Source: Candidatus Woesearchaeota archaeon
GTDB lineage: Archaea; Nanobdellota; Nanobdellia; Woesearchaeales; UBA10216
Direction of reading: 5' to 3'
Length of the DNA: 64,000 nt
NCBI GenBank assembly: GCA_016192945.1
Contig: JACPTE010000024.1
Location: 16,001 to 80,000, forward strand
A model generated the notes under the pieces. It made no database searches, was not told the origin of the DNA, and saw only the letters and a list, made by a program, of their open reading frames with translations. The translations under genes were made by a program, and so were the position numbers. Of the stretch, positions 42,183 to 57,827 are shown piece by piece; position 1 is the first letter of the stretch, and each line of letters begins with the position of its first letter.

Positions 42183-42267
42183 AAAAAAGAGAAAATAAGT
42201 CCATGTTTATAAATTTATAGGTGAGTATGTTAATTTTTATAAATCAGTGCTCATTATCCTGCCTAAA

Positions 42268-42789
42268 ATGGGGATTGACCTGGAAGCAATAGCGAGTATG
42301 GGGTATGATGCTGAATCTCCATTAGAGCTTGATATGTCTCCTGGGGGAATCAGGGGAATAAGCCGCATTGCCTGGGGGTTATATAGTGGCAGCCGCATGA
42401 ACGACGGCTTGCTGGTCTTACACGGGCCATCAGTCCTTGAAAGAAGAAGCGAGTTTGGGATAGCAAAGCTATTATGGGCAGGCAATGGCCTCAATGAGAA
42501 TTATTTTGCAATATCAGGCTTGGGGCATGGAAGGATGGGAGTTGCTATCCTCCAGATAGGCAATCCCGAGTTTATTAATGGAAGGAGGATAATAGGGATA
42601 GGCGAGAATTACACCTTCAGGCTATTTCCTGATCGTGGTGTCTTTCTTGAGGCAGCTACCCTAAAACCCCTTGCAGCAAGCAGCACCAACCTTTTTTATT
42701 ATGCTGGCGCAAGCGTCCTTTTTTATCCATTGGAAAGTATGGAAGGCATTCCCCAGCAGCAGCTACAGCCCGCCGATAATCAGCCCTAG
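42268..42789 (+). CDS. Hypothetical Gly-rich protein divergent from carA, convergent with pyrB
   Basis: TATA atttttataaatc about 30 nt upstream of the ATG. No family recognised. Overlaps the pyrB 3' end by 27 nt. Could be non-coding. Confidence 0.3.
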   Translation: MGIDLEAIASMGYDAESPLELDMSPGGIRGISRIAWGLYSGSRMNDGLLVLHGPSVLERRSEFGIAKLLWAGNGLNENYFAISGLGHGRMGVAILQIGNPEFINGRRIIGIGENYTFRLFPDRGVFLEAATLKPLAASSTNLFYYAGASVLFYPLESMEGIPQQQLQPADNQP

Positions 42790-43683: not shown

Positions 43684-43768
43684 TAAAAAAACAAGAGTAT
43701 CAAGCTTAGTTTATAAAGTTTATTTATTTTTTGTGGTGTTTGAAAAATCTGCCTATAATTTTATAAAC

Positions 43769-46768
43769 ATGAGCACCCAGTTAACGCTGATGGTCGGCAG
43801 CAGGCTTCACAATTTGTTTTTCATTGTTTGTGTCTCAATAATTGGCTTTCTGATGTTTTTTTTCATAAAGGTTTCATTCACAGGGTATGGTGTCTATGAG
43901 GAAAACCTGAAGACGTGGGATTTCAGCCAGCCAGCAGATTACTCATTTGATGCCTTATTGATAAATTTCAGCAGCGGGGTGAGGCTGCAGTCTGTCACGA
44001 TTATGACCCCTGCAACAGGCGTAACTACAAACAGGACTTCAGTCACAGCTGCCTACAAGATTGATGATGACAATGAAAGCGAGCTGGTAACTGGCAAGGT
44101 AACGGCTCTTGATGATTTATATGTCAACAATGGGAAAGATGACCTGCTTAATGTCTCTTTTGGCAGCCTGCTCAATAATGGAGACAATCTGTCGTTCTAT
44201 ATTGACCCCTCAAAGGCAGGCAAGATTCGGATTTGCCTGTCTGGAAGCTGCGCCTCCCCTGGATACGGCGAGGCCTCATTCAGCAAGTCAACTGGCTGGG
44301 TTTCAATAAGGCTTTCCAGCCTTCCTTCAGGCTCAAGCTCGTTCTTGATTGACACTGATTCAAGTGTCAAGTTTGATTATATCTATTCAAACTACACAGA
44401 CAGCTACAATTATTCTGTTCCAGGCAGTTCGTACACTGGCAGTGGAGAGATTGAGACAGCTGACTTTTCGCCATCAGGGGTTTCAATGTGGAATGTCTTC
44501 AATGCCTATGGAACCATGAACCAGCAAACATTGGCTTACAGCTACTCAACTGACTCAGGCGTGTCCTGGGTTTCAATAAGCAATGGCTCCAACATGTCAC
44601 TGCCTGCTTCGTCAGGGAAAATCAGGCTTAAGGCAGCACTCTCCAGCGATGGGACGTCAACGCCTGTGTTAAGCTCCATGAGCATATCATACTCCAGGCT
44701 GTTGTGCAGCGAGGATTGGAGGGCTGTTTATGGCACCTGCCTTGTGAATGACTCAAGATTGAAGACGTACAGTGATGCTAATAATTGCAGGACTTCCGAT
44801 GGCCTGCCTTCTGACAACAGTACTTATGTGCAGTGCGACTACTGCACGCCATCATGGGCTGAGCTGAACAGGAGCTGCCTTGTCAATGATACGCTTTTTT
44901 CATATTTCAGCGACACAAACAGCTGCTTTCCATTTACAGGGCTGGCTTCAGACAATAACCCCCCGGCAAACAAGAGTTATGCCTGCGATTATTGCACCCC
45001 GCATATAGCTTTCTTCAACACATCATGCCGGGCTGACGATACTCTGGTCATGTATGCGAACGACAGCAATGGATGTTATTCATTTACAGGGATTGCATCT
45101 GATAATGTGCCTGGCAATGTGACTTTAGGATGCGACTACTGCACGCCATCATGGGCATGCAGCAGCTATTCTTCATGCAGCATTGCTGGAAGGAGGGCAT
45201 GCACTGGTGCGGTGGATGTAAAGTCGTGCTATCAGCTTACAGGGCTTTTGGCAGATTCCTATCAGGGTAACTATTCTGAGTTTGACTCGCAGTGCTTTAA
45301 TGAAGCTGCATCTTTCATGGTTGCAGGGTTTGACATCGCCCCAAGAAGCGCTGAATCCGGGAAAAACATAACAGTGGTTGTCAAAATTTCGGACATGCCC
45401 AAGGTTAGCTCTGCATTTTTGGAAGCCTATGGCTCTGGGCGCATGAAAGCCCTTTCTGTCCAGGGAATGGCTGGCAACAGCACATTCAGGTTCATAATCC
45501 CGACCAGTTCCCTCAATAAGGGCATTTACACTATGAGAGTTAATGCATCAGACTATTACAACAACTCTGCATTGTTTGATATTGATGCCTTTGCAGTTTC
45601 AGGCTCATTAAGTTCTCTCATGAAGAGCGCTGTTGAAGGGAAGAATTTAATTTCAAACGACGCTGAAAGAAAGGTGAGCACGTCAATAAATTTCAGCAAA
45701 AGCGTGAATGGCACTGTTTTTGTAGCGACCTATAATGAAAGCACGAAGAACGAAACGCCTGCCTCCAAAAAGCAGCTCCATAAGTATGTTGAGATAATTC
45801 CTGACGAGTCAATAAGGCCCAGCATATTGGCGGTAACAATAAGGATAAACTACTCTGATGATGAGCTGTCTGTCTGGAATATTGATGCCAGCAGCCTGGC
45901 AATATACTATTACAATGAGTCCTCTTCAGTTTGGGAAAGGCAGGAATCATCTGTCAACTTGACAGGCCATTATGTAGAGGCAGTTGTAGCCCACGCAAGC
46001 CTCTTTGGGGTTTTTGGTGACCCTGCAAATGCGCCTATCGCAAGCGCTCCAAATGGTGATGGCAGCAGCGGCTCAGATGGAGGGGGCGCTGATGGATGCC
46101 AATCTATCCAAGAATGCCCTGGCTCTTCAGGTTCAGGGCCTGTGGCTAATGAAACCAACCAAAGCATAGGAAGCAGGAAGGGAGAAACTGAAAAGCTCAT
46201 TCCTGACTCTCAAAGAATCCTGGCCATTTCAGGCAACACCACTGCAAGAGCCAATGCCTCAGGATTGGCTGGAAAGGGAGCTGGCTGCGATTACAGCATG
46301 GTTATTGACCTCCCTTCAAATATTTCAATGGTAAGGGAAAATTACTTTATTGGAAGGTTCTCAAGCTCAGGCCAGTGCAGCATTGATGAGGTTGAGATGG
46401 TGCTCAAGGGGCCTGTAACTGATATTGTGTCAATAAATTACAGTACGGGCTCTTCAGGCTTCTTGAGGCTGAATTCAAAGCAGGCAAACGCCAATGCTCT
46501 CAGGGGGCTGCCTGTTGGCCTGATTGTCAACTCACGGGATATCCCGAAGAGGACTTATACAGGCAGCTTAATAGTCAGGGGAATTGTCAACAGGAGTGTT
46601 GTGTCTGAAGAATCCCTGCCCTTGTCTGTTGAGATCGGCGAATCCAGGGCTGGCAGCTCATTTGAAGTCCCGCCTGCTGCATGGATTGTTGCAGCAGGAT
46701 GCATAGTCAGCATCATAAGCCTGCTGCTCCTTCGGAGAATTGCCAAAAGGAAAAAGAAAGGAAGATAG
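43769..46768 (+). CDS. Large (~1000 aa) cysteine-rich-repeat cell-surface protein with N-terminal signal/anchor and C-terminal TM anchor plus basic tail
   Basis: Upstream part of the 1199 aa ORF overlaps pyrB antisense. Start at MSTQLT after the divergent promoter. Four ~45 aa repeats containing CDYCTP(S/H)WA...SC...DDTL..Y.D.N.C..FTG.ASDN. Many N-x-S/T sequons. C-terminus AAWIVAAGCIVSIISLLLLRRIAKRKKKGR. Confidence 0.8.
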   Translation: MSTQLTLMVGSRLHNLFFIVCVSIIGFLMFFFIKVSFTGYGVYEENLKTWDFSQPADYSFDALLINFSSGVRLQSVTIMTPATGVTTNRTSVTAAYKIDDDNESELVTGKVTALDDLYVNNGKDDLLNVSFGSLLNNGDNLSFYIDPSKAGKIRICLSGSCASPGYGEASFSKSTGWVSIRLSSLPSGSSSFLIDTDSSVKFDYIYSNYTDSYNYSVPGSSYTGSGEIETADFSPSGVSMWNVFNAYGTMNQQTLAYSYSTDSGVSWVSISNGSNMSLPASSGKIRLKAALSSDGTSTPVLSSMSISYSRLLCSEDWRAVYGTCLVNDSRLKTYSDANNCRTSDGLPSDNSTYVQCDYCTPSWAELNRSCLVNDTLFSYFSDTNSCFPFTGLASDNNPPANKSYACDYCTPHIAFFNTSCRADDTLVMYANDSNGCYSFTGIASDNVPGNVTLGCDYCTPSWACSSYSSCSIAGRRACTGAVDVKSCYQLTGLLADSYQGNYSEFDSQCFNEAASFMVAGFDIAPRSAESGKNITVVVKISDMPKVSSAFLEAYGSGRMKALSVQGMAGNSTFRFIIPTSSLNKGIYTMRVNASDYYNNSALFDIDAFAVSGSLSSLMKSAVEGKNLISNDAERKVSTSINFSKSVNGTVFVATYNESTKNETPASKKQLHKYVEIIPDESIRPSILAVTIRINYSDDELSVWNIDASSLAIYYYNESSSVWERQESSVNLTGHYVEAVVAHASLFGVFGDPANAPIASAPNGDGSSGSDGGGADGCQSIQECPGSSGSGPVANETNQSIGSRKGETEKLIPDSQRILAISGNTTARANASGLAGKGAGCDYSMVIDLPSNISMVRENYFIGRFSSSGQCSIDEVEMVLKGPVTDIVSINYSTGSSGFLRLNSKQANANALRGLPVGLIVNSRDIPKRTYTGSLIVRGIVNRSVVSEESLPLSVEIGESRAGSSFEVPPAAWIVAAGCIVSIISLLLLRRIAKRKKKGR

Positions 46769-47968
46769 TCAATCCTGCTTTTTTTTATTGATGCCTGATG
46801 CTACTTCCTGGTACGCCTCCCTGAACGGCATTCCCTGCTTTACCAGCTTTGCAGCCTCCTCAGCGGTATAAAGCTCAGAAGTCATAGCTTCCCTGCATCT
46901 TTTCTCATTTACTTTCAAGCCATTGATTATCTGTGCCATTATATCTGCTGATGACCCTGCCATCTCTATGCCATTGAACAAAGGCTCTTTCGTGAGCTTA
47001 AAGTCTCCATTATAGCCTGAAGGGAGATTAAGGATAATGTTGTTTACAGCATCGCAATAGCTCTTCATCATGCCTGCCTTAGCCCGCGCAATTTCAAGCA
47101 CGTCAGGGTTTGCCTTATGGGGCATTATGGAGCTGCCCATTGAGAATTCCTTCGGAAGCTCAAAGTAGCCGAATTCAGATGACGTGAAAAGCCATAAGTC
47201 TGTTGACAGCTTGTTTATGTCAAGCATAAGATTGTTCAGGGAATTTAATACCATGAGCTCAAACTTACCGCGGCTGTTCTGGACGTAAAGCGTGTTGTTC
47301 TGGACCTTGTCAAAGCCGAGAAGCTTTTGGGTCAGGTTCCTGTCAATGTTTAGGACCGGCACGCCATATCCCGCAGCGCTGCCCAATGGATTCTGGTTTA
47401 TCAGCTTCTTTGATGAATTTATCAGAGCAAGGTCATCCCGGAATGATTCTGAAAAAGCCTCTGCCCATTTTCCAACAGCATAGGGCATCGCCTTGCGGAG
47501 GTGGGTGTATCCTGGAATTGGAATTTTGCTGTTCTTGCTGCTGAACTTGTTTAGCTCTTCAATCAATCTGCTGACAGCAGAAATAATTTCCTCAAGCTCG
47601 TGCCTTTCGTAAAGCCTCAAAGCAACAATTATCTGGTCGTTCCTTGAGCGGCCTGTGTGGATTTTCTTGCCTAGCTTCCCTAGCTTTTTTGTAAGATGGT
47701 TTTCAATAGCAGTATGGCAGTCCTCCTGCTCTACAGTGATTTTAAACTCGCCTTTGCTGTCCAGGAGCATTATCTCCTCAAGCCCCGCAATCAGCTGTGA
47801 CAATTCAGTTTTATTCAGTATGCCTGCCTTGTGCAGTGCTTTGGCATGGGCAATGCTTGCAATGCAGTCATATTTGACCAGCTTCTGGTCTATTATGTTC
47901 TCGTTGCCAACTGTGAACTTCTCTATTGCCTTGTCAATGTTGAAATCTTTCTTTTGCCAGAGCTTCAT
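46769..47968 (-). CDS. argH: Argininosuccinate lyase
   Basis: Fumarate-lyase signature GSSIMPHKANPD. Confidence 0.92.
   Translation of the reverse strand: MKLWQKKDFNIDKAIEKFTVGNENIIDQKLVKYDCIASIAHAKALHKAGILNKTELSQLIAGLEEIMLLDSKGEFKITVEQEDCHTAIENHLTKKLGKLGKKIHTGRSRNDQIIVALRLYERHELEEIISAVSRLIEELNKFSSKNSKIPIPGYTHLRKAMPYAVGKWAEAFSESFRDDLALINSSKKLINQNPLGSAAGYGVPVLNIDRNLTQKLLGFDKVQNNTLYVQNSRGKFELMVLNSLNNLMLDINKLSTDLWLFTSSEFGYFELPKEFSMGSSIMPHKANPDVLEIARAKAGMMKSYCDAVNNIILNLPSGYNGDFKLTKEPLFNGIEMAGSSADIMAQIINGLKVNEKRCREAMTSELYTAEEAAKLVKQGMPFREAYQEVASGINKKKQD
46779..46788 (+). terminator. Oligo-T tract immediately after the surface-protein stop codon
   Basis: gcttttttttatt read directly, in the convergent gap before argH. 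Confidence 0.45.
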
Positions 47969-47991: not shown

Positions 47992-49263
47992 TTAATAATA
48001 CTTCTTAATTTTATCAGATTTAGTTTTTACCTGATTGGCGAGCTTCATCTGGAAGCTCCACAGCTCAATGAATCCTGCACTCGCATTCTGGTTGAAAGAG
48101 TAGTCTTTCATGAATGTAACAAGGTTCTTGTCATAAAGCGCATTTTCAGAGTAAATAGCAACAGCTTCTGCCTTGCCCTTGTAAAGCTTTACAGTGACTG
48201 AGCCATTAACCTTTTCATTCAGCTTATTGCAGAAAATGTTTAGTTCATCTATCAACGGCTCAAGCCAGAATCCCCCATAGCAAAGATATGCCCATTTAGT
48301 GTCCACAATGCTCTTGAACTCGTTCTCCTGCCTTGTGCAGACATATTTCTCAATTACCTTGTGCGCCTCCAATATGATGGCTGCTGCCGGCATTTCGTAA
48401 ATGTCACGGTTCTTAAGACCAACAACCCTGTCTTCAATATGATAGCTTATCCCAATGCCGTGCTTTGCTCCTATCTTTGCCAATAACAGGATAATATCAG
48501 AAAGCTTCATTATTTTCCCTTCAACAGCAACAGGAAGTCCTTTCTCAAAATCAATCTTTATTAATTCGGGCTTGTCTGGAGCATTCTCAGGGGTGTTGCA
48601 TACAGCGAGTATTTTTTCAGCAGGAGGGATAAGACTGGGATCCTCAATTTCACCTGATTCTGCACTTGAGCCCCACATATTGTCATCATAGCTGTAAGGC
48701 TTGTCCTTGGTTGCTTTTACGGGAATGTTATTTTTCTTGGCATATTCAATCTCCTCATCCCTTCCCATGCTCCATTCACGGACTGGAGCGATGACTTTTA
48801 TCTTTGGACTGATGGTTATGGCAGTTGCTTCAATCCTCACCTGGTCATTTCCTTTTCCTGTGCATCCGTGTGCAATCGCATCTGCGCCTTCCTTTTCAGC
48901 TATTTCAACAGCAATCTTTGCAAGCAATGGCCTGCCCATTGCAGTTGCAAGATGATAAGCGCCCTGATATGAGGCATTGGCTTTTATGCCCTTTGCAACA
49001 TAATTATTAGCAAACTCGTCCTTGGCATCGACTACAAAAGCCTTTTTTGCACCAAGCTTTAATGCCTTTTTCCGGATTTCCTCCAAATCGTCACTATGCT
49101 GCCCAAGATCAACTGTGAGCGCAATTACCTCTGCATTATATTCCTCCTGAATCCACTTAAGCATTACAGAAGTGTCCAATCCGCCTGAATAAAGCAAAAC
49201 TACTTTCTTGACCTGTCCTTTTTCAGCTTCATAGCTTGCAACTTTGGAATATTCTTTTTTCAT
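47992..49263 (-). CDS. argG: Argininosuccinate synthase
   Basis: LLYSGGLDTSV PP-loop. ArgG length. Confidence 0.93.
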   Translation of the reverse strand: MKKEYSKVASYEAEKGQVKKVVLLYSGGLDTSVMLKWIQEEYNAEVIALTVDLGQHSDDLEEIRKKALKLGAKKAFVVDAKDEFANNYVAKGIKANASYQGAYHLATAMGRPLLAKIAVEIAEKEGADAIAHGCTGKGNDQVRIEATAITISPKIKVIAPVREWSMGRDEEIEYAKKNNIPVKATKDKPYSYDDNMWGSSAESGEIEDPSLIPPAEKILAVCNTPENAPDKPELIKIDFEKGLPVAVEGKIMKLSDIILLLAKIGAKHGIGISYHIEDRVVGLKNRDIYEMPAAAIILEAHKVIEKYVCTRQENEFKSIVDTKWAYLCYGGFWLEPLIDELNIFCNKLNEKVNGSVTVKLYKGKAEAVAIYSENALYDKNLVTFMKDYSFNQNASAGFIELWSFQMKLANQVKTKSDKIKKYY

Positions 49264-49274
49264 TTTTCCTCCAC

Positions 49275-49826
49275 TTATTTGAGCGTCATTATCATGGGTA
49301 TCTCATCACACAGTCCGTATTCCATGAGCCTACAGTCAGCGCAATCCTGCTGGTATTTTGAAGCAGGGAAATTTTGTGCTGTAACAAAGCCCCATCTTTC
49401 AAAAATAGGAACATTTTCTCTTTTCGTCAAGGTAAGCATCTGGGAGTGCCCCCTTGCCAAGGCCTCTTCTGCAACTGCCCTGACAAGCAATCCGCCAATG
49501 CCTCTTTTCTGGTATTGCCCATCAACAGCAAGAGTCCTCATTTCCGCAATATCTGCATATTCAACCAATGAATTGCATCCTATTATCCTGGGATTAGCAG
49601 CTACATAAAAGCCGTTCTGTAAAGTAACCTCGATCACCCTTTGCTCAGTTATTGGAAGTAGCATTCCTTTTGCCTCCAAAAAGCCGTTTGAAGCTATTGA
49701 AAACTTGTACTTGTCTGCCCAAGCCTTGATTTGAGGAGCATCAGCTAAGATAGCCTGCCTTACAATGCATGCAGCTGAAAAATCCGTTCCTCCACCGACT
49801 AATGCAAGGTCTTCTATCGTTGCCAT
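49275..49826 (-). CDS. GNAT-family N-acetyltransferase (candidate short N-acetylglutamate synthase or regulator) with C-terminal Cys motif
   Basis: Motif A TLAVDGQYQKRGIGGLLV. C-terminal CADCRLMEYGLCDE. The annotated long ORF's N-terminus (MSYLRQLCLICPVLVN) is really the translated conserved operator DNA. Confidence 0.7.
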   Translation of the reverse strand: MATIEDLALVGGGTDFSAACIVRQAILADAPQIKAWADKYKFSIASNGFLEAKGMLLPITEQRVIEVTLQNGFYVAANPRIIGCNSLVEYADIAEMRTLAVDGQYQKRGIGGLLVRAVAEEALARGHSQMLTLTKRENVPIFERWGFVTAQNFPASKYQQDCADCRLMEYGLCDEIPMIMTLK

Positions 49827-49846: not shown

Positions 49847-49908
49847 GATTTATAAGCCTATTGACCAAAACAGGACAAATAAGACATAGTTGTCTTAAAT
49901 AGGACATC
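49847..49908 (-). promoter_or_regulatory. Arg-cluster promoter 1: TATA (cttataaatc) plus conserved upstream ~50-bp element
   Basis: Element ggtcaatagg...gtcctgttttggtc with GACA/TGTC half-sites. Same element at 51543-51605 and 55775-55832, each abutting a TATA box. Confidence 0.55.
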
Positions 49909-50157
49909 TACTTATTTGTCTAGTTTTAGTGAAATAGTATGTAGATATCCACAACATTGTTAATCTGCCTTAAATTAATTCCCTGAAGCACGAATCTGTA
50001 AAGGTTTTCAACAGAAGACCTGTGCTCTTTCGGCTTCGCTCCAAAAGCAGAATAGGCTTTTCTCCACGAATTTATTTTCGGGTGTTCTGATATGAGGGGA
50101 TTATTATGGGTTTCCCTGGCTTTTTTCTGTTCTGTTAACAGCTCTTGATAAATTTCT

Positions 50158-51042
50158 TCATTTTTCCTCCAGCAATTTCAGCATTATAGCCTTCTGCACA
50201 TGAAGCCTGTTCTCAGCCTGCTCAAAAACAATCGAGTTCTGGCTGTCTATCACTTCATCAGTTATCTCGAAGCCCCTATGGGCGGGGAGACAATGCATTA
50301 TCAAGGCATTCTCCGGAACAAGCCCCCTGTTCAGCTGATAAGGAGAAAAAACATTGTGCCTTTTCTCAGCTTCCTTTTCCTGGCCAAGAGAAACCCAGGT
50401 GTCTGTATAAACAATATCTGCCCCTTCAACAGCTTCCTTTGGATTGTTTGTGAAACTCAGAAGGCCTGTTTTTTTTGCAGATTCCATTATTCCCATATTT
50501 GGCTCATAGCCCTTTGGCGTTGCAACAGCAATCCTTATGCCTGTTTTTGTGCAGGCAGCGATAAGCGAATTGCAGACATTGTTGCCATCTCCGATAAATG
50601 CCAGCTTTGATTTGAGGCCTTTCTTTTCCTTGATAGTCATTACATCAGCCAATGCCTGGCATGGGTGCTCAAAGTCAGAAAGCCCGTTTATAACAGGAAC
50701 ACCTGCAACCTTGGCCATCTTTTCTACATCGCTATGTGAATAGACACGAACCATTATTATATCTGCATATCCTCCTATGCATTTTACCTCATCAAAAATA
50801 TTGCCAACTGCAAAGTTGCTGTCCTTCCAGTCAAGGAATGCGGCATGACCTCCAAGTTGTGTCATCCCAATTTCAAATGAAATCCTTGTCCTTGTTGAGG
50901 TTTTCTGGAAAATCATCACAAGGCTTTTGCCTTTCAAGGCTCCAGAATAATTCTCAGGACTCTTTTTGAGCTTTTCAGCTAATGAAATGATTTCATTTAC
51001 CTCTTTATTATCCAAATCCTTGATTGCAAGCAGATGATTCAT
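50158..51042 (-). CDS. argF: Ornithine carbamoyltransferase
   Basis: STRTR carbamoyl-phosphate motif and HCLPAHRG. Confidence 0.92.
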   Translation of the reverse strand: MNHLLAIKDLDNKEVNEIISLAEKLKKSPENYSGALKGKSLVMIFQKTSTRTRISFEIGMTQLGGHAAFLDWKDSNFAVGNIFDEVKCIGGYADIIMVRVYSHSDVEKMAKVAGVPVINGLSDFEHPCQALADVMTIKEKKGLKSKLAFIGDGNNVCNSLIAACTKTGIRIAVATPKGYEPNMGIMESAKKTGLLSFTNNPKEAVEGADIVYTDTWVSLGQEKEAEKRHNVFSPYQLNRGLVPENALIMHCLPAHRGFEITDEVIDSQNSIVFEQAENRLHVQKAIMLKLLEEK

Positions 51043-51051
51043 TTTTCCTGT

Positions 51052-51531
51052 TCAATTGTTTTCAATACTGCAAGATATTAGTTCAGTTTTACAGTTTGGA
51101 TAGCGCGAGCATTTAATGTCATGTGCAAGCATCATTACGTTTTCGGGTATGCTTTCCCTGTCAACAACCTCAAGCTTCAACTTCTTGAAAAACCCTGGCT
51201 TTTCAGTGAATGCTATAAGTTTCTGTACTCCCATTTCCTTTGCTTCCTGCATTGCCATCTCTACCAGCCTTGTCCCTATGCCTTTACCCTGATGCTTCTC
51301 TTTCACCGCCAGACTCCTGAGTTCAGCATAGCCATCCAGAACTATATGCAGGGCTATGCATCCCACAATTTCTCTCCCTATCTTGGCTATGAAGTATTCC
51401 CTTATGCTGCTATACACTTCGCTGAAAGGCTTTGGGGAAACTCCCTTGCCTGTAAAGCTGTTTATAAGGAAATTTATCTCCCCTGCATTGGATAGCTTCG
51501 CTTTTCCAAAAGTCACTTCAGGATTTTCCAT
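51052..51531 (-). CDS. GNAT-family N-acetyltransferase (short NAGS-like)
   Basis: Motif A YAELRSLAVKEKHQGKGIGTRLVEMA. Start MENPEV about 27 nt after the TATA. Paralog of 56538-56999. Confidence 0.72.
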   Translation of the reverse strand: MENPEVTFGKAKLSNAGEINFLINSFTGKGVSPKPFSEVYSSIREYFIAKIGREIVGCIALHIVLDGYAELRSLAVKEKHQGKGIGTRLVEMAMQEAKEMGVQKLIAFTEKPGFFKKLKLEVVDRESIPENVMMLAHDIKCSRYPNCKTELISCSIENN

Positions 51532-51542
51532 GGAAGGTAGTA

Positions 51543-51605
51543 AAGTTAGCTTTCTTATAAGGTTATTGACCAAAACCAGACTAATTAGACATAAATGTCC
51601 TAAAT
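51543..51605 (-). promoter_or_regulatory. Arg-cluster promoter 2: TATA (cttataag) plus conserved upstream element
   Basis: ttattgaccaaaaccagactaattagacataaatgtcctaaataagacaaaacc. Contains the GACATAAATGTC palindrome. Confidence 0.55.
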
Positions 51606-51634
51606 AAGACAAAACCTATTCTCCCTTCTTTGCT

Positions 51635-52810
51635 TTAGCTCCTGTAGCTTGCATTTATGCCAATGTACTTTTCTGTGAGGTCGCAGGTATATGCCGTGTG
51701 CTCTCCGTTTCCCTGTCCCATAACCGCTTTTATTTCTATGGATTTGTGTTTTAGATAATTCTCAGCATTGTTTTCATTGAATTTAAGGGGGTTGCCATTT
51801 TTGAAAACACATATTTTTCCCAGGAATATGGAAATTCCTTTTTCATTGGCACCTGATCCGCTTGCTCCTATGGCCGCAATTATACGCCCCCAATTGGCAT
51901 CATTGCCGTAAATGGCTGTCTTGACCAGATTTGAGTTTGCTATCCTCATTGAAATCTTCTTGGCTGCAATGCCACTTTTTGCCCCTGCAACCTTTACTGT
52001 TATCAGCTTTGTAGAGCCTTCCCCGTCTGCTACGATTTTTTTTGCAAGTGCCAGGCAAACATTTCCCAGTGCCAAAGAGAAGTTTTTTGCTTCTCTCATT
52101 GCCTTTAGCTCCTTATTTCCTGCCTCTCCACTGGACATTATGGCAGCACAGTCATTTGTGCTCATATCCCCATCAACGGTAATTGAGTTAAAAGTCGCAT
52201 CGCAGCAGCTTTTCCATAATTTCTCAAGCAATGCCTGGCTTATCGCCGCATCGGTAATGACGATTGCCAGCATTGTTGCCATATTGGGCGCAATCATGCC
52301 GCTTCCCTTTGCAATGCCTGCTATGGTGACTTTCTTTTTTGAAATCCAAATCTTTTTTAAGACAATCTTTTTCCTGGTGTCGGTGGTCATTATCGCTTCT
52401 GCAGCATTTCGAAGCCCTGCACTGCCTAGCTCAAAAACGGCTTTTTTAACTCCCCTTTTTATCAGCTGGACAGGAAGCCTTTTACCTATTATTCCTGTTG
52501 ACATGACCAAAATTTCATTCAGGCCTGTTTTAAGCTCTTTTGCAGCATGAGCTTGAATAGCCAGGGCATCTTTCAGTCCTTGTTTTCCTGTGCAGGCGTT
52601 TGCAACCCCGCTGTTTACTATGATTGCTTTTTTCTTTTTTTCCCTCATGGCTCTGATTGAAATTTTTACCGGGGCTGCTTTTATTTTGTTTGTAGTAAAT
52701 AGCACTGATGTTTTACATGGATTTTCTGAATAGATTATTGCAAAATCTTTTTTCCGGTTTTTCTTTATTCCGCAGCCGACTCCGGCAGCCAGGAATCCCT
52801 TGGGCATCAT
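51635..52810 (-). CDS. argJ: Bifunctional ornithine acetyltransferase / N-acetylglutamate synthase
   Basis: KGSGMIAPNMATML (ATML self-cleavage site with Thr nucleophile). Confidence 0.92.
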   Translation of the reverse strand: MMPKGFLAAGVGCGIKKNRKKDFAIIYSENPCKTSVLFTTNKIKAAPVKISIRAMREKKKKAIIVNSGVANACTGKQGLKDALAIQAHAAKELKTGLNEILVMSTGIIGKRLPVQLIKRGVKKAVFELGSAGLRNAAEAIMTTDTRKKIVLKKIWISKKKVTIAGIAKGSGMIAPNMATMLAIVITDAAISQALLEKLWKSCCDATFNSITVDGDMSTNDCAAIMSSGEAGNKELKAMREAKNFSLALGNVCLALAKKIVADGEGSTKLITVKVAGAKSGIAAKKISMRIANSNLVKTAIYGNDANWGRIIAAIGASGSGANEKGISIFLGKICVFKNGNPLKFNENNAENYLKHKSIEIKAVMGQGNGEHTAYTCDLTEKYIGINASYRS

Positions 52811-53727
52811 AGTAGTCCCTCGCTTTCTTTTATTCCGAACATAATATTCATGTTCTGGACGGCCTGTCCACTTGCTCCTTTTAACAGGTTATCAAGTGCC
52901 GATATTATCACTATCCTGTTGTTGTGGTCTGCTTCAAAGCCCCCTATGATGCAATAATTGGTGTTTCGGGCATCATGGAGGGTGGGTAGCCTGTCAACAA
53001 CCTTGACGAATTGTTCCTTCTCATAATGCTTTATGAATTCCGTCTTAACATCCCCGGCATCAACAGCCTCGTTCATTATGAAGTGCGAAGTGCAGAGTAT
53101 TCCCCTGAATAATGGAAGCACATGGGGTGTGAATGAAACTTTTTTCCCTAACGCTTTTTCAATCTCTTTTATGTGCTCGTGATTTGTGAGCTGATAGGGC
53201 ATGACATTTTCCTTCAGGTTTTCAGGTGAATTTCTTTGGCTCGGCGTTTTTCCTGCTCCGCTATATCCTGACTTGCAGTCAAATATGATGTTTTTGAGGT
53301 TATTGTTGCCCAGCATCGGCAGAGCAGAAAGTATTGCGGCTGTCGCGTAACAGCCCGGATTTGCTACAAATCTGGTCCTGCTTATTTTCTCACGGTTGAG
53401 TTCAGGAAGTCCATAAACAGCTTCGCTGCCCAAGCGGTAATCTGGGCTTAAGTCAATTATACGCGCCGTTACTTTCGGAACAATTTTCTTTGCCATTCCC
53501 TCCCGTACTGCGAGGAACACTATGTCAGCGATTTTATTTATTTTATCCATGCCGTAGTTTGTGAATGAAATATCACAGTCATATTCGGGATATATATCAC
53601 TGACTTTTTTCCCGTATTTGCTTTCTGAGTTGGCAGCCACTATCTCTACTTTATTGTGTCTGCTCAGTATTTTTATAAGTTCAAATCCTGTATAGCCTGA
53701 CGCGCCTATTATTGCAGCTTTAATCAT
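52807..53727 (-). CDS. argC: N-acetyl-gamma-glutamyl-phosphate reductase
   Basis: IGASGYTGFELIKIL Rossmann. Catalytic Cys in PGCYAT. Confidence 0.92.
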   Translation of the reverse strand: MIKAAIIGASGYTGFELIKILSRHNKVEIVAANSESKYGKKVSDIYPEYDCDISFTNYGMDKINKIADIVFLAVREGMAKKIVPKVTARIIDLSPDYRLGSEAVYGLPELNREKISRTRFVANPGCYATAAILSALPMLGNNNLKNIIFDCKSGYSGAGKTPSQRNSPENLKENVMPYQLTNHEHIKEIEKALGKKVSFTPHVLPLFRGILCTSHFIMNEAVDAGDVKTEFIKHYEKEQFVKVVDRLPTLHDARNTNYCIIGGFEADHNNRIVIISALDNLLKGASGQAVQNMNIMFGIKESEGLL

Positions 53728-54881
53728 TTTAGCACTCCATGCAGGATATCCATTCCTTCAAGAATTTCCGCCTCTGTTATTGTGAGTGATGGAAGCATTC
53801 TCAGCGTTTTCTCAGTGCATTTGTTTATCAAAAGTCCTTTCTTGATGCATTTTTCAGCAACATTTTCGGCATCAACAATGATGTCCATTCCAGCCATAAG
53901 ACCTTTTCCCCTAAACTGGGAGATCAAATCACTCTTGGATTTTAGTTCTGCAAGATTTTTTAGGATGATCGCTCCTTTGTTGTTTGCTTTTTCCACCAGC
54001 CCGTTTTTTTCCATATACGCTATTGTAGCCAAGGCTGCTGTGCATGCAAGCGGATTTCCTCCAAAAGTGCTTCCGTGGTCTCCTTTGCCGAATGAGTCAG
54101 CGATTTCTTCTGCAGCGATTGTCACGCCTATGGGCACGCCATTGGCCAGGCCTTTTGCAGAAGTGACTATGTCTGGCTTTATCTTGCTGTGCTGATAGCA
54201 AAAGTACTTGCCTGTCCTTCCATTTCCAGTCTGCACCTCATCAGCTATAAGGAGAATTCCTTTTTCGTCACAAATTTCTCTTACAGCCTTAAGGTATGAA
54301 TTATGCGGCACTATGACTCCAGCTTCACCCTGTATTGGCTCTACAATGAATGCCGCTGTATCTTCGGTAACTGCTTTACGCAGAGCTTCCGAATCATTAT
54401 ATGGTATGTGCATGAACCCGGGAACCAAAGGCTTAAACGGCTCAGTGTATTTGGCTTTTGAAGTGGCTGACAATGCACCAAATGTGCGCCCGTGAAATCC
54501 GCCATCGGCTGCTATTATGCCTGGCTTTCCTGTGTGCTTTCTTGCAAGCTTTATTGCTGTTTCATTCGCCTCTGCTCCTGAATTGGAGAAGAAACTCTTA
54601 TCAAGGCTTGAAAGCAGGGCTAGCTTCTGGGAGAGCTTTATTTGAGGTTCTGTGTAGTACAAGTTTGTTGTAGTAATTATTTTTCGGATTTGCTCAATAA
54701 TAGCGGAATTGACTTCTTCATTGCAATACCCAACGCTGCAGGTTCCTAGAGCTCCTGCAAGGTCAAGGTAGCTGTTTCCATCAATGTCTAATGCGCGGCA
54801 TCCTATACCTCGCTCTATTAGAAGGCTTATCCTATTATATGTCTGCATCAGACTTTTATTTGATTTTTGCAAATAAGTCAT
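53724..54881 (-). CDS. argD: Acetylornithine aminotransferase (class III PLP)
   Basis: LIADEVQTGNGRTGKYF. PLP-lysine region TSAKGLANG. Confidence 0.9.
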   Translation of the reverse strand: MTYLQKSNKSLMQTYNRISLLIERGIGCRALDIDGNSYLDLAGALGTCSVGYCNEEVNSAIIEQIRKIITTTNLYYTEPQIKLSQKLALLSSLDKSFFSNSGAEANETAIKLARKHTGKPGIIAADGGFHGRTFGALSATSKAKYTEPFKPLVPGFMHIPYNDSEALRKAVTEDTAAFIVEPIQGEAGVIVPHNSYLKAVREICDEKGILLIADEVQTGNGRTGKYFCYQHSKIKPDIVTSAKGLANGVPIGVTIAAEEIADSFGKGDHGSTFGGNPLACTAALATIAYMEKNGLVEKANNKGAIILKNLAELKSKSDLISQFRGKGLMAGMDIIVDAENVAEKCIKKGLLINKCTEKTLRMLPSLTITEAEILEGMDILHGVLK

Positions 54882-54903
54882 GTTTCACCGTAAAATTCTA
54901 ATA

Positions 54904-55734
54904 TCATAGCCTGCTGGCAGGTAAAAAGGCAGTTCTTCTGGTGGTGTGGTTCTTTATGACTATTGTCCCACATACTGATTGGTCAGTAAGGCTTTGCAGC
55001 ATTCCAGACGGGTCAACTATGAAAACGGACGGAGCCCTGTCCATCTTGCTTAGCATTTCAATAATCACTTTAACTTTCAGAAGCATGCCGCCATTCAGTG
55101 CATTTTTTTTGACTAGTTCAGGATAGCCCGATTCTGGGTACAGCTTTTCAATCAGGTTTCCTTCAGCATCCCTGACTCCTCCTTGCTCAGTCACCAGTAT
55201 GAATTTTTTTGGATTAAGCGCCTTCACAAGCTCCTTTGATGCCACGTCTGCATTGATATTGAATTGCTGTCCTGACTTATCAATGCCAATTGGGCAGATT
55301 ACCGGCAATTTTCCATCAATTAATGCGGTTTTTATTGCCTCCAGGTTTACTTTCTTGACATGCCCAACAAATCCGAGGTCCTTGCCATTTATTTTCCAAT
55401 GCTTTGTGCATTCGAAAATATCATATAACACTGTGACGTTCCCGCCTTTTTTCGCTACTTCTTCAGCCAATAAAATGCAGCTCTTTTTGAGCTGTTCAAT
55501 CACTATGCGCAGTTGTTTTTTCCCAGTTACCCTAAGACCCTGTACCTTCTTTGAACTCAGATTTTTCTTTTTCAGCTTTTCATCAATCTGAGGCCCGGCT
55601 CCGCATACTACTATTGAACATAGCCCAAGGCTCTGCGCATAGCTTAAGGCTTCGCCTAGCTCTTGAAGCTGGTTGATTATAACCTTCCCTCCAATCTTTA
55701 TCAATGCAAGTTCCGGATTATTCGAGTCGTTCAT
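54904..55734 (-). CDS. argB: Acetylglutamate kinase
   Basis: LIKIGGKV amino-acid-kinase N-terminus. Start at internal MNDSNN. The longer ORF upstream is translated operator DNA. Confidence 0.9.
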   Translation of the reverse strand: MNDSNNPELALIKIGGKVIINQLQELGEALSYAQSLGLCSIVVCGAGPQIDEKLKKKNLSSKKVQGLRVTGKKQLRIVIEQLKKSCILLAEEVAKKGGNVTVLYDIFECTKHWKINGKDLGFVGHVKKVNLEAIKTALIDGKLPVICPIGIDKSGQQFNINADVASKELVKALNPKKFILVTEQGGVRDAEGNLIEKLYPESGYPELVKKNALNGGMLLKVKVIIEMLSKMDRAPSVFIVDPSGMLQSLTDQSVCGTIVIKNHTTRRTAFLPASRL

Positions 55735-55774
55735 TGTCAAGCTGGTTGTTGATTGAAGTATTATTCTGACATCG

Positions 55775-55832
55775 CTTATAATCCTATTGACCAAAACAGG
55801 ACAAAATAAACAAAAATGTCCAAAACAAAACA
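55775..55832 (-). promoter_or_regulatory. Arg-cluster promoter 3: TATA (cttataat) plus conserved upstream element, shared divergent region with the regulator gene
   Basis: cctattgaccaaaacaggacaaaataaacaaaaatgtccaaaacaaaaca. Confidence 0.55.
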
Positions 55833-55835
55833 TTT

Positions 55836-55900
55836 TAATAGTTAATAGTTAATCGTTTGTAGTTTGCAGTATGAACTACTAACTACTTACCACTTACCTA
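55836..55900. repeat. Short direct and inverted repeats (TAGTTAA x2 / AACTAC x2 / TTACC x2) immediately upstream of the HTH-ACT regulator gene
   Basis: Read directly: tagttaatagttaat...gaactactaactacttaccacttacc. Confidence 0.4.
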
Positions 55901-55906
55901 TTTAGG

Positions 55907-56530
55907 ATGAACATCACAAAGGCTGTTGAAAAGCATGTTTCAGGAAGGCCAAGCATCAAGGACTGCCTCAAGAGGAAGCTGATAAACTACTCTGCGCTCT
56001 CAAGGCAGATTGGCTCGGAGCTTGGAATAAGCAATTTCGATGCAATCCTTATAGCCTGCAGGAGATATGCTGAAAAGCTCAAGTCAGAGGAGGTTCTGGA
56101 AAAAAGAATCATAGACATCCTGAAGAAAAGCAGGATAGGTGTCAAGAACAGGATTGTTGCTGTTGTGATTGAAAAAACGATATATTATAACAGCCTTCTG
56201 GAATTGGAGAAGGAGATAAGGAAAAAAGATGAAACTCTCCATATCATGGAAGGGGCAAATGCGATTACTCTTGTAACAAGCTCGGACTACACTGATAATA
56301 TAAGGAAGCTGTTCAAGGGTCAGATAATAAAGATAAGCAAGGACCTCGCTGAAATAAATGTGAAGAGCCCAAGGGAACTGGAGAATACGCCTGGAGTCCT
56401 CTCACAGATGTGCTCCCTTTTTGCTGAGCGGGGGATAAACATTGTTGAAAGCATGAGCTGCTGGACTGACACGCTGTTCGTAATAAATGAAAGCGACATC
56501 GCAAAAGTGATGGATGCATTGAAGTTCTGA
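55907..56530 (+). CDS. Putative amino-acid-responsive transcription regulator: N-terminal HTH + C-terminal ACT domain
   Basis: HTH-like LSRQIGSELGISNFDAILIACRRY. C-terminal ACT-like SPRELENTPGVLSQMCSLFAERGINIVESMS. Divergent from argB. Confidence 0.65.
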   Translation: MNITKAVEKHVSGRPSIKDCLKRKLINYSALSRQIGSELGISNFDAILIACRRYAEKLKSEEVLEKRIIDILKKSRIGVKNRIVAVVIEKTIYYNSLLELEKEIRKKDETLHIMEGANAITLVTSSDYTDNIRKLFKGQIIKISKDLAEINVKSPRELENTPGVLSQMCSLFAERGINIVESMSCWTDTLFVINESDIAKVMDALKF

Positions 56531-56537: not shown

Positions 56538-56999
56538 TCAGTATTTTATGACATAGTCTATTTCATCAAGGTTTATAACGATTCCTGTGCATCCTGAAAT
56601 GCAGCTTTTTTTCAGGCTTTCAGGAAGCTCATTATCCTTTGCCACTCTGAACTTGAATTTCCTGAAGAAATCAGGGCTTTTTGTAAAGCCAACTGCATGC
56701 CTTGCATCAAGGAGCTTTGCCTCGTACAGGGCAAGCTCAACGAGCCTTGTCCCTATTCCCTTTCCTCGGAATCCCTGGTTGACAGCAAGGCTGCGGAGCT
56801 CTGCATAATCAGAGTCAATTATGTCAACTGCTATAACGCCAACTATCCTGCCGCTGTCCTTCGCAACAAAGAAGCTCCTTATTTCATGCAGGATGTCATC
56901 AATGCTTCTGGAGAGTATGCGTGCATTGTCAATCAGCAGCTTGATTTCTGCAGCATCAGAAACGCGGGCCTTGCAATAGACTATGTTCGGGCTTGGCAT
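56538..56999 (-). CDS. GNAT-family N-acetyltransferase, paralog of 51052-51531
   Basis: YAELRSLAVNQGFRGKGIGTRLVELALYEAK nearly matches the GNAT2 motif A. Confidence 0.72.
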   Translation of the reverse strand: MPSPNIVYCKARVSDAAEIKLLIDNARILSRSIDDILHEIRSFFVAKDSGRIVGVIAVDIIDSDYAELRSLAVNQGFRGKGIGTRLVELALYEAKLLDARHAVGFTKSPDFFRKFKFRVAKDNELPESLKKSCISGCTGIVINLDEIDYVIKY

Positions 57000-57740: not shown

Positions 57741-57827
57741 ACGGTAGTGGTCTAACGGCATGACAGGAGCTTCCCAAGGCTAAGCTGGAGTCAGCTTCTA
57801 GTCCGGGTTCAATTCCCGGCTACCGTA
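57741..57827 (+). tRNA. tRNA-Gly: tRNA-Gly (anticodon CCC) with a ~16-nt canonical intron between positions 37/38
   Basis: Hand-folded:
- acceptor ACGGTAG/CTACCGT with discriminator A
- U8, D-arm GTCT-AACGGCA-TGAC
- anticodon stem GGAGC/GCTTC, loop TTCCCAA (U33, CCC, A37)
- intron about 57777-57792
- T-arm CCGGG-TTCAATT-CCCGG (G53-C61, A58)
- C2-G71/G3-C70 Gly identity pairs
- TATA-like tttatttcag about 25 nt upstream
- CCA not encoded. Confidence 0.65.

What the first reader, a model, noticed from the sequence alone, without database searches (positions are those of the whole stretch)
49847..55832. Conserved ~50-bp element abutting the TATA box of three arginine-biosynthesis promoters: candidate arg-regulon operator
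Three copies of a near-identical sequence lie immediately upstream of the TATA boxes for GNAT1-argG-argH, GNAT2-argF and argB.
- Sense-strand core: TTGTC(C/T)TATTT...ATGTC...GTC(C/T)GGTTTTGGTCAATA(G/A)(G/C)-(C/A)TTATAA.
- Seen at 49847-49908, 51543-51605 and 55775-55832, with repeated GACA/TGTC half-sites.
- The six-frame track translates it into an apparently conserved protein N-terminus (MSYL.QLCLI.PVLVN), which is an artefact of the DNA conservation.
- Its position upstream of BRE/TATA fits an activator-type site, and its triplication marks a co-regulated arginine regulon.
- No ArgR-like gene is present. The only nearby regulator is the divergent HTH-ACT protein.
Basis: seen in the sequence. 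Interest (0 to 1): 0.75.

Follow-up and report, generated by a model that had tools for sequence, protein, structure and literature searches.

The report
Arginine-gene operator array in Woesearchaeota
Three arginine-biosynthesis promoters in this DPANN archaeon carry the same 57-bp array of protein-binding boxes, an array conserved across Woesearchaeota next to an uncharacterised HTH-plus-ACT protein, which predicts a new arginine regulator and its regulon in archaea that cannot be cultured.

Summary
Three 57-nt copies (49850-49906, 51555-51611, 55776-55832; sense strand is minus; 45-47/57 identical) each end in TTATAA. They sit in front of GNAT1-argG-argH, GNAT2-argF and argB-argD-argC-argJ, and they are the top repeat family in the window.

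Each copy has a fixed layout: a 16-bp palindromic box O1 (TGTYY-N6-RRACA), a TGTYTA half-site, a weaker box O2 29-30 bp from O1, then the BRE region and the TATA box.

The same layout occurs in 46 aligned instances from Woesearchaeota genomes and metagenomes. It usually lies between an arg gene and a divergent 207-aa gene encoding an N-terminal helical HTH-like domain plus tandem ACT domains. There, the left arm of O1 doubles as the BRE of that gene's promoter.

A motif-first metagenome scan landed directly upstream of arg genes in 24 of 39 matches.

The element is not coding, not a detectable RNA and not a generic repeat.

Best reading: it is the operator array of the HTH-ACT protein, which represses its own gene and controls the arg genes in response to an amino acid. 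Whether it represses or activates the arg promoters is unresolved. No binding or expression data exist.

The parts
49850..49906 (-). Element copy 1, upstream of GNAT1-argG-argH. O1 49891-49906 (TGTCCTATTTAAGACA); half-site 49881-49886 (TGTCTT); O2 49862-49877 (TGTCCTGTTTTGGTCA); BRE region 49856-49861; TATA 49850-49855 (TTATAA); ATG at 49826.
51555..51611 (-). Element copy 2, upstream of GNAT2-argF. O1 51596-51611 (TGTCTTATTTAGGACA); half-site 51586-51591 (TGTCTA); O2 51567-51582 (AGTCTGGTTTTGGTCA); BRE region 51561-51566; TATA 51555-51560; ATG at 51531.
55776..55832 (-). Element copy 3, between argB-argD-argC-argJ and the divergent HTH-ACT gene. O1 55817-55832 (TGTTTTGTTTTGGACA); half-site 55807-55812 (TGTTTA); O2 55788-55803 (TGTCCTGTTTTGGTCA); BRE region 55782-55787; TATA 55776-55781; argB ATG at 55734 (TTG at 55740).
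55833..55840 (+). Putative TATA box (TTTTAATA) of the HTH-ACT gene, directly abutting O1. The O1 left arm read on the + strand (AAAACA) sits where the BRE should be. In this window the start codon is 75 nt from O1 instead of the usual 26-30, so a leader is implied.
   Evidence: Inferred from the conserved arrangement in other loci; window sequence
55907..56530 (+). Candidate regulator, 207 aa. N-terminal four-helix HTH-like domain (residues 1-75; 16 K/R against 9 D/E) plus tandem ACT domains like the regulatory domain of aspartate kinase.
49275..49826 (-). GNAT1, first gene behind copy 1 (short N-acetylglutamate-synthase-like acetyltransferase), followed by argG 47992-49263 and argH 46769-47968.
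50158..51531 (-). GNAT2 (51052-51531) and argF (50158-51042), the unit behind copy 2.
51635..55734 (-). argB (54904-55734), argD (53724-54881), argC (52807-53727) and argJ (51635-52810), the unit behind copy 3.

Best explanation
The 57-bp element is a transcription-factor operator array placed just upstream of the BRE/TATA of arginine-biosynthesis promoters. The most likely binding protein is the divergently encoded 207-aa HTH-plus-tandem-ACT protein.

**Anatomy (shown).** Five TGT/ACA-type half-sites lie about one helical turn apart on one face of the DNA:
- a 16-bp palindrome O1 (TGTYY-N6-RRACA);
- a single TGTYTA half-site;
- a degenerate palindrome O2 (TGTYY-N6-GGKCA) whose centre is 29-30 bp from that of O1;
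- O2 ends 5-6 bp before the TATA hexamer, which starts about 29-30 nt before the start codon of a leaderless mRNA.

Where the regulator gene is adjacent, its own TATA box abuts O1, and the left arm of O1 read on the other strand (AAAACA) is that promoter's BRE.

**Mechanism (inferred).**
- Dimers bind O1 with high affinity.
- This occludes TFB at the regulator's own promoter, giving negative autoregulation.
- An amino acid, most plausibly arginine, binds the ACT pair and changes oligomerisation.
- Occupancy of the half-site and O2, next to the arg BRE, changes as a result.

I lean about 55:45 towards ligand-dependent cooperative repression of the arg promoters (TrpY-like) over ligand-relieved activation (LysM/Tar-like). 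The confidence given is for the core claim (operator array, HTH-ACT regulator, arg regulon), not for the sign.
For: - **Three copies, nowhere else.** They are the only matches in 64 kb. The DNA is about 80% identical although the genes behind copies 1 and 2 are only 35% identical.
- **Conserved architecture.** The same rigid layout occurs in 46 aligned instances with 72% mean column identity; the TGT, AC, GT and G..C columns are invariant.
- **Specificity across about 1.2 Mb of Woesearchaeota DNA.**
  - The box PWM gives 103 hits at 12 bits or more, against 1 in shuffled DNA.
  - Flanking genes are the HTH-ACT gene, argG, argF, argB, GNAT and NAT-like genes.
  - 17 of 40 argG genes have a box within 160 nt upstream, against 32 of 870 other genes. 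Many of those 32 are NAT-like or kinase genes of the same loci.
- **Motif-first metagenome scan.** There are 39 matches on 38 contigs. 24 are directly upstream of argG/H/F/B/C or NAT-like genes, and 30 of the 38 contigs carry arg or HTH-ACT genes.
- **Link to the regulator gene.**
  - The regulator gene is divergent from an arg, GNAT or NAT-like gene within 3 kb in 49 of 80 species-level loci.
  - 71 of 79 loci have a box within 1.5 kb upstream of it.
  - The box persists beside homologs only 34-40% identical.
- **Promoter geometry.**
  - TATA hexamers peak at -30 from ATG.
  - Regulator-side BRE scores are near optimal (mean 4.65 against 1.86 for generic promoters, p=2.5e-13).
  - Arg-side BRE scores are below average (0.89, p=8e-4).
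- **The protein.**
  - Pfam finds ACT domains.
  - The model has pLDDT 86, and its C-terminal 140 residues match aspartokinase regulatory domains (Foldseek E=8e-9).
- **Precedent.** The TrpY and Tar systems are summarised in PMC6737238.
Against: - There is no binding, footprint, transcript or ligand data of any kind.
- Gene adjacency could reflect a metabolic rather than a DNA-binding role of the ACT protein.
- 31 of 80 regulator loci show no core arg gene within 10 kb. The regulator may therefore have other or additional targets, or the arg genes may lie elsewhere in those genomes.
- The loci are only +/-10 kb, so no complete-genome regulon was scanned.
- The sign of regulation is not determined by anything computed here.
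Confidence: 0.72

Rival explanations
1. Same operator and same regulator, but the protein is an activator. The apo-protein bound at O1/O2, just upstream of a sub-optimal BRE, recruits TFB/TBP to the arg promoters. Arginine binding to the ACT domains releases it (LysM/Tar/Ptr2-like logic), while it still represses its own gene through O1.
For: - O2 ends 5-6 bp upstream of the TATA hexamer, so it abuts rather than covers the core BRE.
- Arg-side BRE scores are lower than those of generic promoters (0.89 against 1.86, p=8e-4).
- Archaeal activators characterised so far bind upstream of BRE/TATA (PMC6737238).
Against: - BRE scores of the three window copies fall at the 29th to 83rd percentile of generic promoters, so they are not clearly weak.
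- The BRE-region sequence itself is conserved (CA[AT][TC]AGG). This could mean that the regulator contacts it.
- A strong distal site plus weak proximal sites also fits cooperative repression.
Confidence: 0.3
2. The element is an operator, but for a different, unidentified transcription factor. The HTH-ACT protein is instead a metabolic regulatory subunit, for example a feedback-sensing partner of an arginine-pathway enzyme, that merely shares the locus.
For: - The C-terminal fold is that of an enzyme regulatory domain, the aspartokinase beta-type tandem ACT.
- One source annotates homologs as 'aspartokinase'.
- The N-terminal domain has no sequence-level match to a known DNA-binding family.
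Against: - O1 overlaps the BRE of this gene's own promoter in most loci. That is the classic signature of an autoregulated transcription factor.
- The box stays attached to this gene even where arg genes are not adjacent.
- The N-terminal domain is basic (16 K/R against 9 D/E in 75 residues). It has invariant Arg/Lys/Asn/Ser positions, and its best fold hits are DNA-bound domains.
Confidence: 0.12
3. The conserved sequence is an RNA element (leader, riboswitch or small RNA) whose hairpins regulate the arg mRNAs.
For: The O1 and O2 arms can pair if G-U pairs are allowed: 92.5% of cells form a standard pair, against at most 52.6% for slid controls.
Against: - The element lies upstream of the TATA boxes on both sides. 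mRNAs in this lineage are leaderless, with the TATA hexamer at -30 from ATG.
- There is no covariation above shuffles: 134-199 of 500 shuffles do as well.
- Predicted folds differ between the three copies, with z-scores of -0.99, +0.98 and -2.13.
- Rfam gives no hit.
Confidence: 0.03
4. The similarity is a by-product. It could be an N-terminal coding extension shared by the three proteins, or a recently duplicated or mobile repeat with no regulatory role.
For: All three window copies are open in frame with the downstream gene (27, 27 and 33 codons).
Against: - 27 of 43 orthologous elements contain in-frame stops, and the distance to the start codon is not a multiple of 3.
- L001 has a TAG in that frame.
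- The flanking genes are old paralogs (35% identity).
- The element sits at orthologous promoter positions across a phylum.
Confidence: 0.02

Closest known systems
TrpY / TRP-box system of Methanothermobacter thermautotrophicus
   Same: - The regulator gene is transcribed divergently from the amino-acid biosynthetic operon.
- Several short boxes lie in the overlapping promoter region.
- TrpY represses its own gene without ligand, and represses both promoters with the end-product amino acid (PMC6737238).

The layout here (strong O1 on the regulator's BRE, weaker sites reaching the arg BRE) fits that logic.
   Different: - The box sequence differs: TGTYY-N6-RRACA here, not the TRP box.
- The pathway differs: arginine, not tryptophan.
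- Here the array is also copied to promoters far from the regulator gene.
Lrp/AsnC-family archaeal regulators (LysM of Sulfolobus; Ss-LrpB with its three phased boxes)
   Same: From my own knowledge:
- They combine an HTH with an ACT-like (RAM) amino-acid-binding domain.
- They bind phased palindromic boxes upstream of BRE/TATA.
- LysM controls the lysW cluster, which also serves arginine synthesis, and loses activity when lysine is bound.
- Ss-LrpB binds strong outer boxes and a weak middle box cooperatively.
   Different: - The protein has no Pfam AsnC/Lrp hit.
- The sensor is a tandem ACT of the aspartokinase type, not a single RAM domain.
- The DNA-binding domain is a four-helix domain, not a recognised winged helix.
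Bacterial ArgR and ARG boxes
   Same: - It controls the same pathway.
- Pairs of palindromic boxes lie on one face of the DNA next to the promoter.
- Several dispersed arg promoters share the operator.
- The regulator responds to an amino acid and autoregulates (my own knowledge).
   Different: - Neither Pfam nor NCBIfam returns an ArgR/arginine-repressor family for the protein.
- The box consensus and spacing differ: 16-bp boxes with centres 29-30 bp apart, instead of 18-bp ARG boxes 2-3 bp apart.
- The promoter context is archaeal BRE/TATA.
Tar (TK0271) of Thermococcus kodakarensis
   Same: One regulator has sites upstream of BRE/TATA at several amino-acid biosynthesis operons (PMC6737238).
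   Different: - Tar is a MarR-like activator encoded inside the aro operon.
- Here the candidate is an HTH-ACT protein encoded divergently, and the sign of regulation is unknown.

Membership tests
Archaeal BRE/TATA promoter (leaderless) | TATA-like hexamer about 30 nt upstream of the start codon, preceded by an A-rich BRE | tested here: met
   - TTATAA starts at -29 for GNAT1 and GNAT2 and at -47 for argB.
- The lineage-wide peak of TATA hexamers is at -30.
- The BRE consensus is A-rich at -7..-3.
- Arg-side BRE scores of the window copies are 0.98 to 4.19.
Transcription-factor operator (palindromic dimer site) | Inverted repeat with sequence-conserved arms, at a fixed position relative to the promoter, recurring at functionally related genes and rare elsewhere | tested here: met
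   - TGTYY-N6-RRACA occurs 3 of 3 times at the elements in the window.
- The PWM gives 103 hits against 1 in shuffled DNA.
- The downstream genes are arg genes.
- The architecture is rigid across 46 instances.
Transcription-factor operator (palindromic dimer site) | Demonstrated binding by a protein | not testable with these tools
   This needs EMSA, footprinting or DAP-seq.
Bacterial ArgR / ARG box | ArgR protein domains (Arg_repressor N- and C-terminal) and 18-bp ARG boxes in tandem 2-3 bp apart | tested here: not met
   - The candidate regulator has no ArgR family hit in Pfam or NCBIfam.
- The boxes are 16 bp with centres 29-30 bp apart, and the consensus is different.
Lrp/AsnC (FFRP) regulators | HTH_AsnC-type winged helix plus RAM (AsnC_trans_reg) domain | tested here: not met
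   Pfam hits are ACT families and a sub-threshold DUF7523 only. The fold is tandem ACT of the aspartokinase type.
ACT-domain small-molecule sensors | beta-alpha-beta-beta-alpha-beta ACT fold, here as a tandem pair as in aspartate kinase regulatory domains | tested here: met
   - Pfam ACT, ACT_7, ACT_9 and ACT_AHAS_ss hits have E-values from 3.5e-7 to 6.4e-5.
- Foldseek matches aspartokinase regulatory domains at E=8e-9 to 4e-7 over about 145 columns.
- Ligand identity was not tested.
DUF7523 (PF24367) | Score at or above Pfam's gathering threshold (27 bits) | tested here: inconclusive
   - The window protein scores 25.2 bits over residues 9-79.
- Several close homologs and a distant one carry precomputed PF24367 hits.
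- No paper mentions the family.
TrpY-type regulator | Divergent regulator/operon with boxes in the shared promoter region; protein homologous to TrpY; TRP-box sequence | tested here: inconclusive
   - The arrangement is met.
- The box sequence is different.
- Protein homology was not tested, because no TrpY sequence was at hand.
cis-regulatory RNA (leader or riboswitch) | Transcribed, with a conserved secondary structure supported by covariation | tested here: not met
   - The element is upstream of the TATA boxes.
- There is no covariation above shuffles.
- The folds are inconsistent between copies.
- Rfam gives no hit.

The most novel reading that the evidence does not exclude
The DUF7523-like HTH plus tandem-ACT proteins are a previously unrecognised family of archaeal transcription factors. 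In Woesearchaeota they would be the master arginine sensor. They would bind a phased five-half-site operator that is built into a bidirectional promoter, with one operator arm serving as the BRE of the regulator's own gene. This would be the first defined transcription-factor regulon in DPANN archaea.
Probability: 0.6. Interest if true: 0.7.

Novelty: new variant of a known kind. Interest (0 to 1): 0.62.

Why it matters
- **Open question.** Regulation of arginine synthesis in archaea has no described ArgR equivalent in the papers I could search. Nothing I found describes transcription-factor regulons in DPANN archaea, which are almost all uncultured.
- **What this gives.**
  - A precise operator with a fixed architecture.
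  - A named candidate regulator, with 175 clusters at E<=1e-30 in a library of 50%-identity cluster representatives.
  - A predicted regulon: argG, argH, argF, argB/C/D/J and the acetyltransferases that probably make N-acetylglutamate.
- **Testability.** All of it can be tested in vitro with recombinant protein and synthetic DNA, so no culture is needed.
- **Wider interest.**
  - One operator arm doubles as a BRE, a compact design for a bidirectional archaeal promoter.
  - The box can serve as a marker for annotating arginine-pathway genes, including the unannotated NAT-like genes, in Woesearchaeota MAGs.

Tried and rejected
- **Exact composite pattern.** GTCYKGTTTNGGTCMATANNNTTWTAA gave 0 hits in GTDB genomes and 0 in JGI metagenomes. 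It was too specific to the window's sub-lineage, so I replaced it with protein-anchored loci and a looser O1-plus-half-site pattern.
- **Coding N-terminal extension.** Rejected.
- **RNA element.** Rejected: no Rfam hit, no covariation, inconsistent folds.
- **Recent duplication or mobile repeat.** Rejected: GNAT1 and GNAT2 are 35% identical, and the 250-nt spacer after argF has no significant similarity to anything in the cluster.
- **Sequence search of the regulator against PDB chains.** Only spurious or weak hits.
- **Carbamoyl-phosphate genes as regulon members.** The pyrB-carA...carB cluster at 34980-43683 has an ordinary promoter and no box.
- **Distant family members.** P0265 and P0238 sit on short, GC-richer contigs, and their upstream regions showed no recognisable box. 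The box may therefore be specific to the Woesearchaeota branch.
- **Four metagenome matches.** L099, L106, L115 and L123 share one identical match sequence. The one inspected (L123) lies beside an integrase and an IS91-like transposase with no arg or HTH-ACT gene, so I treat them as unrelated chance matches.
- **Literature searches.** Searches for an archaeal HTH-ACT arginine regulator, for DUF7523 and for an archaeal arginine regulon found nothing relevant.

Full report
**1. Observation**

The window holds an arginine-biosynthesis cluster on the minus strand, annotated by NCBIfam and Pfam:
- argB (54904-55734), argD, argC, argJ;
- a GNAT acetyltransferase (51052-51531) followed by argF;
- a second GNAT (49275-49826) followed by argG and argH.

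A 207-aa gene with ACT-domain hits lies divergent from argB (55907-56530, + strand).

A 57-nt direct repeat precedes each of the three units: 49850-49906, 51555-51611 and 55776-55832. It is the top repeat family in the window. The copies are 45-47/57 identical pairwise and align without gaps, each ending in TTATAA.

The core 13-mer occurs exactly only at these three places. The degenerate palindrome TGTYY-N6-RRACA occurs three times in 64 kb, all at the elements.

**2. Not coding, not RNA, not a recent duplication**

All three copies happen to be open in frame with the downstream gene. Against a coding role:
- An orthologous element (L001) carries a TAG in that frame.
- 27 of 43 elements from other genomes carry in-frame stops, and the distance to the start codon varies out of phase.

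Against an RNA role:
- Rfam finds only a tRNA in the window.
- Predicted RNA folds differ between copies, with z-scores of -0.99, +0.98 and -2.13.
- On a 46-sequence alignment the two palindromes show no covariation beyond column shuffles.

Against a recent duplication: the GNAT genes behind copies 1 and 2 are only 35% identical in protein, while the elements are about 80% identical in DNA. Selection therefore acts on the DNA itself.

**3. Organism and related loci**

Homologs of the 207-aa protein are numerous (608 hits), highly conserved, and named as Woesearchaeota or Nanoarchaeota where a source gives a name.

Contigs encoding homologs 72-74% identical show the regulator gene divergent from GNAT-argF-argG-x-argH, with the same element in between.

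A profile-guided scan of one genome per species returned 80 loci.
- 49 carry core arg genes.
- In 49 an arg, GNAT or NAT-like gene is divergent within 3 kb upstream of the regulator gene. The order of the arg genes varies: argG-argH, argG-argF-argH-argJ-argB-argD-argC, argF alone, or argB alone.

**4. Anatomy of the element**

Aligning 46 instances gives 72% mean column identity. The layout is rigid:
- O1, a 16-bp palindrome TGTYY-N6-RRACA;
- four T residues;
- a single half-site TGTYTA;
- a short T-rich spacer;
- O2, TGTYY-N6-GG(G/T)CA, starting 29-30 nt after O1 starts;
- five or six bases, CA(A/T)(T/C)AGG counting the end of O2;
- a TATA hexamer at +51;
- the start codon near +80.

The half-site centres fall about 11, 9, 9 and 11 bp apart, so all five lie on one face of the helix.

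Across all loci, TATA-like hexamers peak sharply 30 nt before start codons, so mRNAs here are leaderless and the TTATAA of the elements is in the standard place. The generic BRE is A-rich at -7 to -3.

Where the regulator gene is adjacent, a second TATA box abuts O1 on the other side, about 30 nt from the regulator's ATG (d=26). The left arm of O1 read on that strand (AAAACA) is a near-optimal BRE: mean score 4.65 against 1.86 for 227 generic promoters (p=2.5e-13). Arg-side BREs score 0.89 (p=8e-4).

This also explains a difference between sites. O1 is TGTTTT next to the regulator gene but closer to a perfect palindrome (TGTCY...RGACA) at distal promoters such as copies 1 and 2.

**5. Specificity**

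A 24-nt PWM of O1 gives 103 hits at 12 bits or more in about 1.2 Mb of Woesearchaeota DNA, against 1 in shuffled sequence.

The genes next to strong hits cluster as follows:
- the regulator (50);
- argG (17);
- a group of 14 made up of argB, argB fusions and free-standing homologs of the fused acetyltransferase-like domain;
- argF (3);
- GNATs;
- an APH-like kinase gene that forms an operon with the regulator in 16 loci.

A box lies within 160 nt upstream of 17 of 40 argG genes and 0 of 33 argH genes, which are internal to operons. It lies upstream of 32 of 870 other genes, many of which are the NAT-like and kinase genes.

An independent motif-first scan of JGI metagenomes with TGTCYNATNTNRGACATNTNTGTYTA returned 39 matches on 38 contigs.
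- 24 matches are directly upstream of argG, argH, argF, argB, argC or NAT-like genes.
- 30 of the 38 contigs carry arg or regulator genes.
- Four contigs share one identical match sequence. The one inspected (L123) carries an integrase and an IS91-like transposase and no arg gene, so I count them as unrelated.

In the window, the pyrB-carA...carB cluster has an ordinary promoter without a box.

**6. The candidate regulator**

- The AlphaFold model has mean pLDDT 86.
- Residues from about 65 to 207 match the tandem-ACT regulatory domain of aspartate kinases (Foldseek E=8e-9). This agrees with the Pfam ACT hits.
- Residues 1-75 form a four-helix domain (pLDDT 89.5). It is basic (16 K/R against 9 D/E) and has invariant Asn27, Ser29, Arg33, Arg52, Arg53 and Lys57.
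- No solved structure is detectable by sequence.
- The window protein is just below threshold for DUF7523, a family no paper mentions.
- A full profile search finds 175 clusters at E<=1e-30 and 889 at E<=1e-10 in a library of 50%-identity representatives, nearly all 200-225 aa.
- 71 of 79 regulator loci have a box of 16 bits or more within 1.5 kb upstream. Homologs only 34-40% identical still have the box beside them.

**7. Mechanism**

*Shown:* the architecture, its conservation, its position relative to two promoters, its association with arg genes, and its association with the HTH-ACT gene.

*Inferred:*
- The HTH-ACT protein binds the boxes as dimers.
- Binding at O1 competes with TFB at its own BRE, giving negative autoregulation.
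- An amino acid bound by the ACT pair, most plausibly arginine, alters oligomerisation and hence occupancy of the weaker half-site and O2 beside the arg BRE.

Two signs are possible.
- **TrpY-like repression.** TrpY represses its own gene without ligand and represses both promoters with ligand (PMC6737238). This model explains the strong distal and weak proximal site design and the conserved BRE-region bases.
- **LysM/Tar-like activation.** This is suggested by O2 abutting rather than covering the core BRE, and by the lower BRE scores.

I lean 55:45 to repression. Nothing computed here settles it.

**8. Comparison with known systems**

The system works like TrpY/TRP boxes, Lrp-family regulators with phased boxes, and bacterial ArgR/ARG boxes. 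Membership in the ArgR and Lrp/AsnC families was tested through their protein domains and not met. Homology to TrpY could not be tested. Literature searches found no description of this regulator family, of DUF7523, or of an archaeal arginine regulon of this kind.

**9. Verdict**

- Only the activator label remains open.
- It is a new variant of a known kind: an amino-acid-responsive transcription factor and operator system, with an uncharacterised protein family, a defined operator architecture, and a lineage (DPANN) in which I found no regulon described.
- All functional claims rest on comparative genomics and structure prediction. No binding or expression evidence exists.

Noticed in passing
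L016-L019, L021, L025, L028, L030, L031, L034, L043, L046, L048, L052, L059, L069, L077 (upstream of the HTH-ACT gene): In 16 species-level loci an APH/fructosamine-kinase-like gene (about 290-345 aa, PF01636) sits between box O1 and the HTH-ACT gene on the same strand. The box then precedes a kinase-regulator operon.
   Followed up: partly
L027, L029, L045, L056, L067, L070, L076, L078, L082, L088 (gene just downstream of the element); L077, L089 (441-464 aa ArgB): Some Woesearchaeota ArgB proteins carry a C-terminal extra domain. Free-standing 160-229 aa homologs of that domain lie directly behind the element; the one checked (L027) has no Pfam hit but carries a GNAT-like motif. They are probably N-acetylglutamate synthases.
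   Followed up: partly
window 49275-49826, 51052-51531, 56538-56999 (all minus strand): There are three GNAT paralogs. GNAT2 matches the acetyltransferase part of the ArgH(A) fusion model NF008964 (E=7e-22). GNAT3 is 41% identical to GNAT2 and lies convergent to the regulator gene, an arrangement conserved in L001, L004 and L007.
   Followed up: partly
window 34980-43683 (minus strand): A pyrB-like carbamoyltransferase, carA, a methyltransferase, two NUDIX genes (one fused to GDPD) and carB form a cluster next to the arg genes. Its promoter (TTTATAA about 30 nt before the ATG at 43683) has no box.
   Followed up: yes
all loci and window: TATA-like hexamers peak sharply at -30 from start codons, and the BRE consensus is A-rich at -7..-3. 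Leaderless mRNAs therefore seem to be the rule in these Woesearchaeota.
   Followed up: yes
window 55833-55906: In the window the regulator's start codon is 75 nt from O1, instead of the 26-30 nt seen in most loci. An extra stretch of about 45 nt implies a leader or a lineage-specific insertion.
   Followed up: no
window 43169-46768 (+): This ORF of up to 1199 aa has no Pfam hit. Its 5' part overlaps the pyrB-like gene on the other strand, so the true start is probably further downstream.
   Followed up: no
window 49255-49289 and 50153-50187: A 35-nt repeat (80% identical) has a 15-nt identical core, GGAGGAAAAATGAA, on the minus strand. One copy lies at the GNAT1/argG junction and the other at the 3' end of argF. 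In relatives argF is followed directly by argG, so this may be a scar of the rearrangement that inserted the element plus GNAT1.
   Followed up: partly
L099, L106, L115, L123: Four metagenome contigs share one identical match to the O1-type palindrome. The one inspected (L123) has an unrelated context (NhaC-like transporter, integrase, IS91-like transposase), so I treat them as chance matches of one mobile sequence.
   Followed up: yes
window 57741-57827 (+): The only Rfam hit in the window is an 87-nt tRNA, longer than the 71-position model. It may have a long variable arm or an intron.
   Followed up: no
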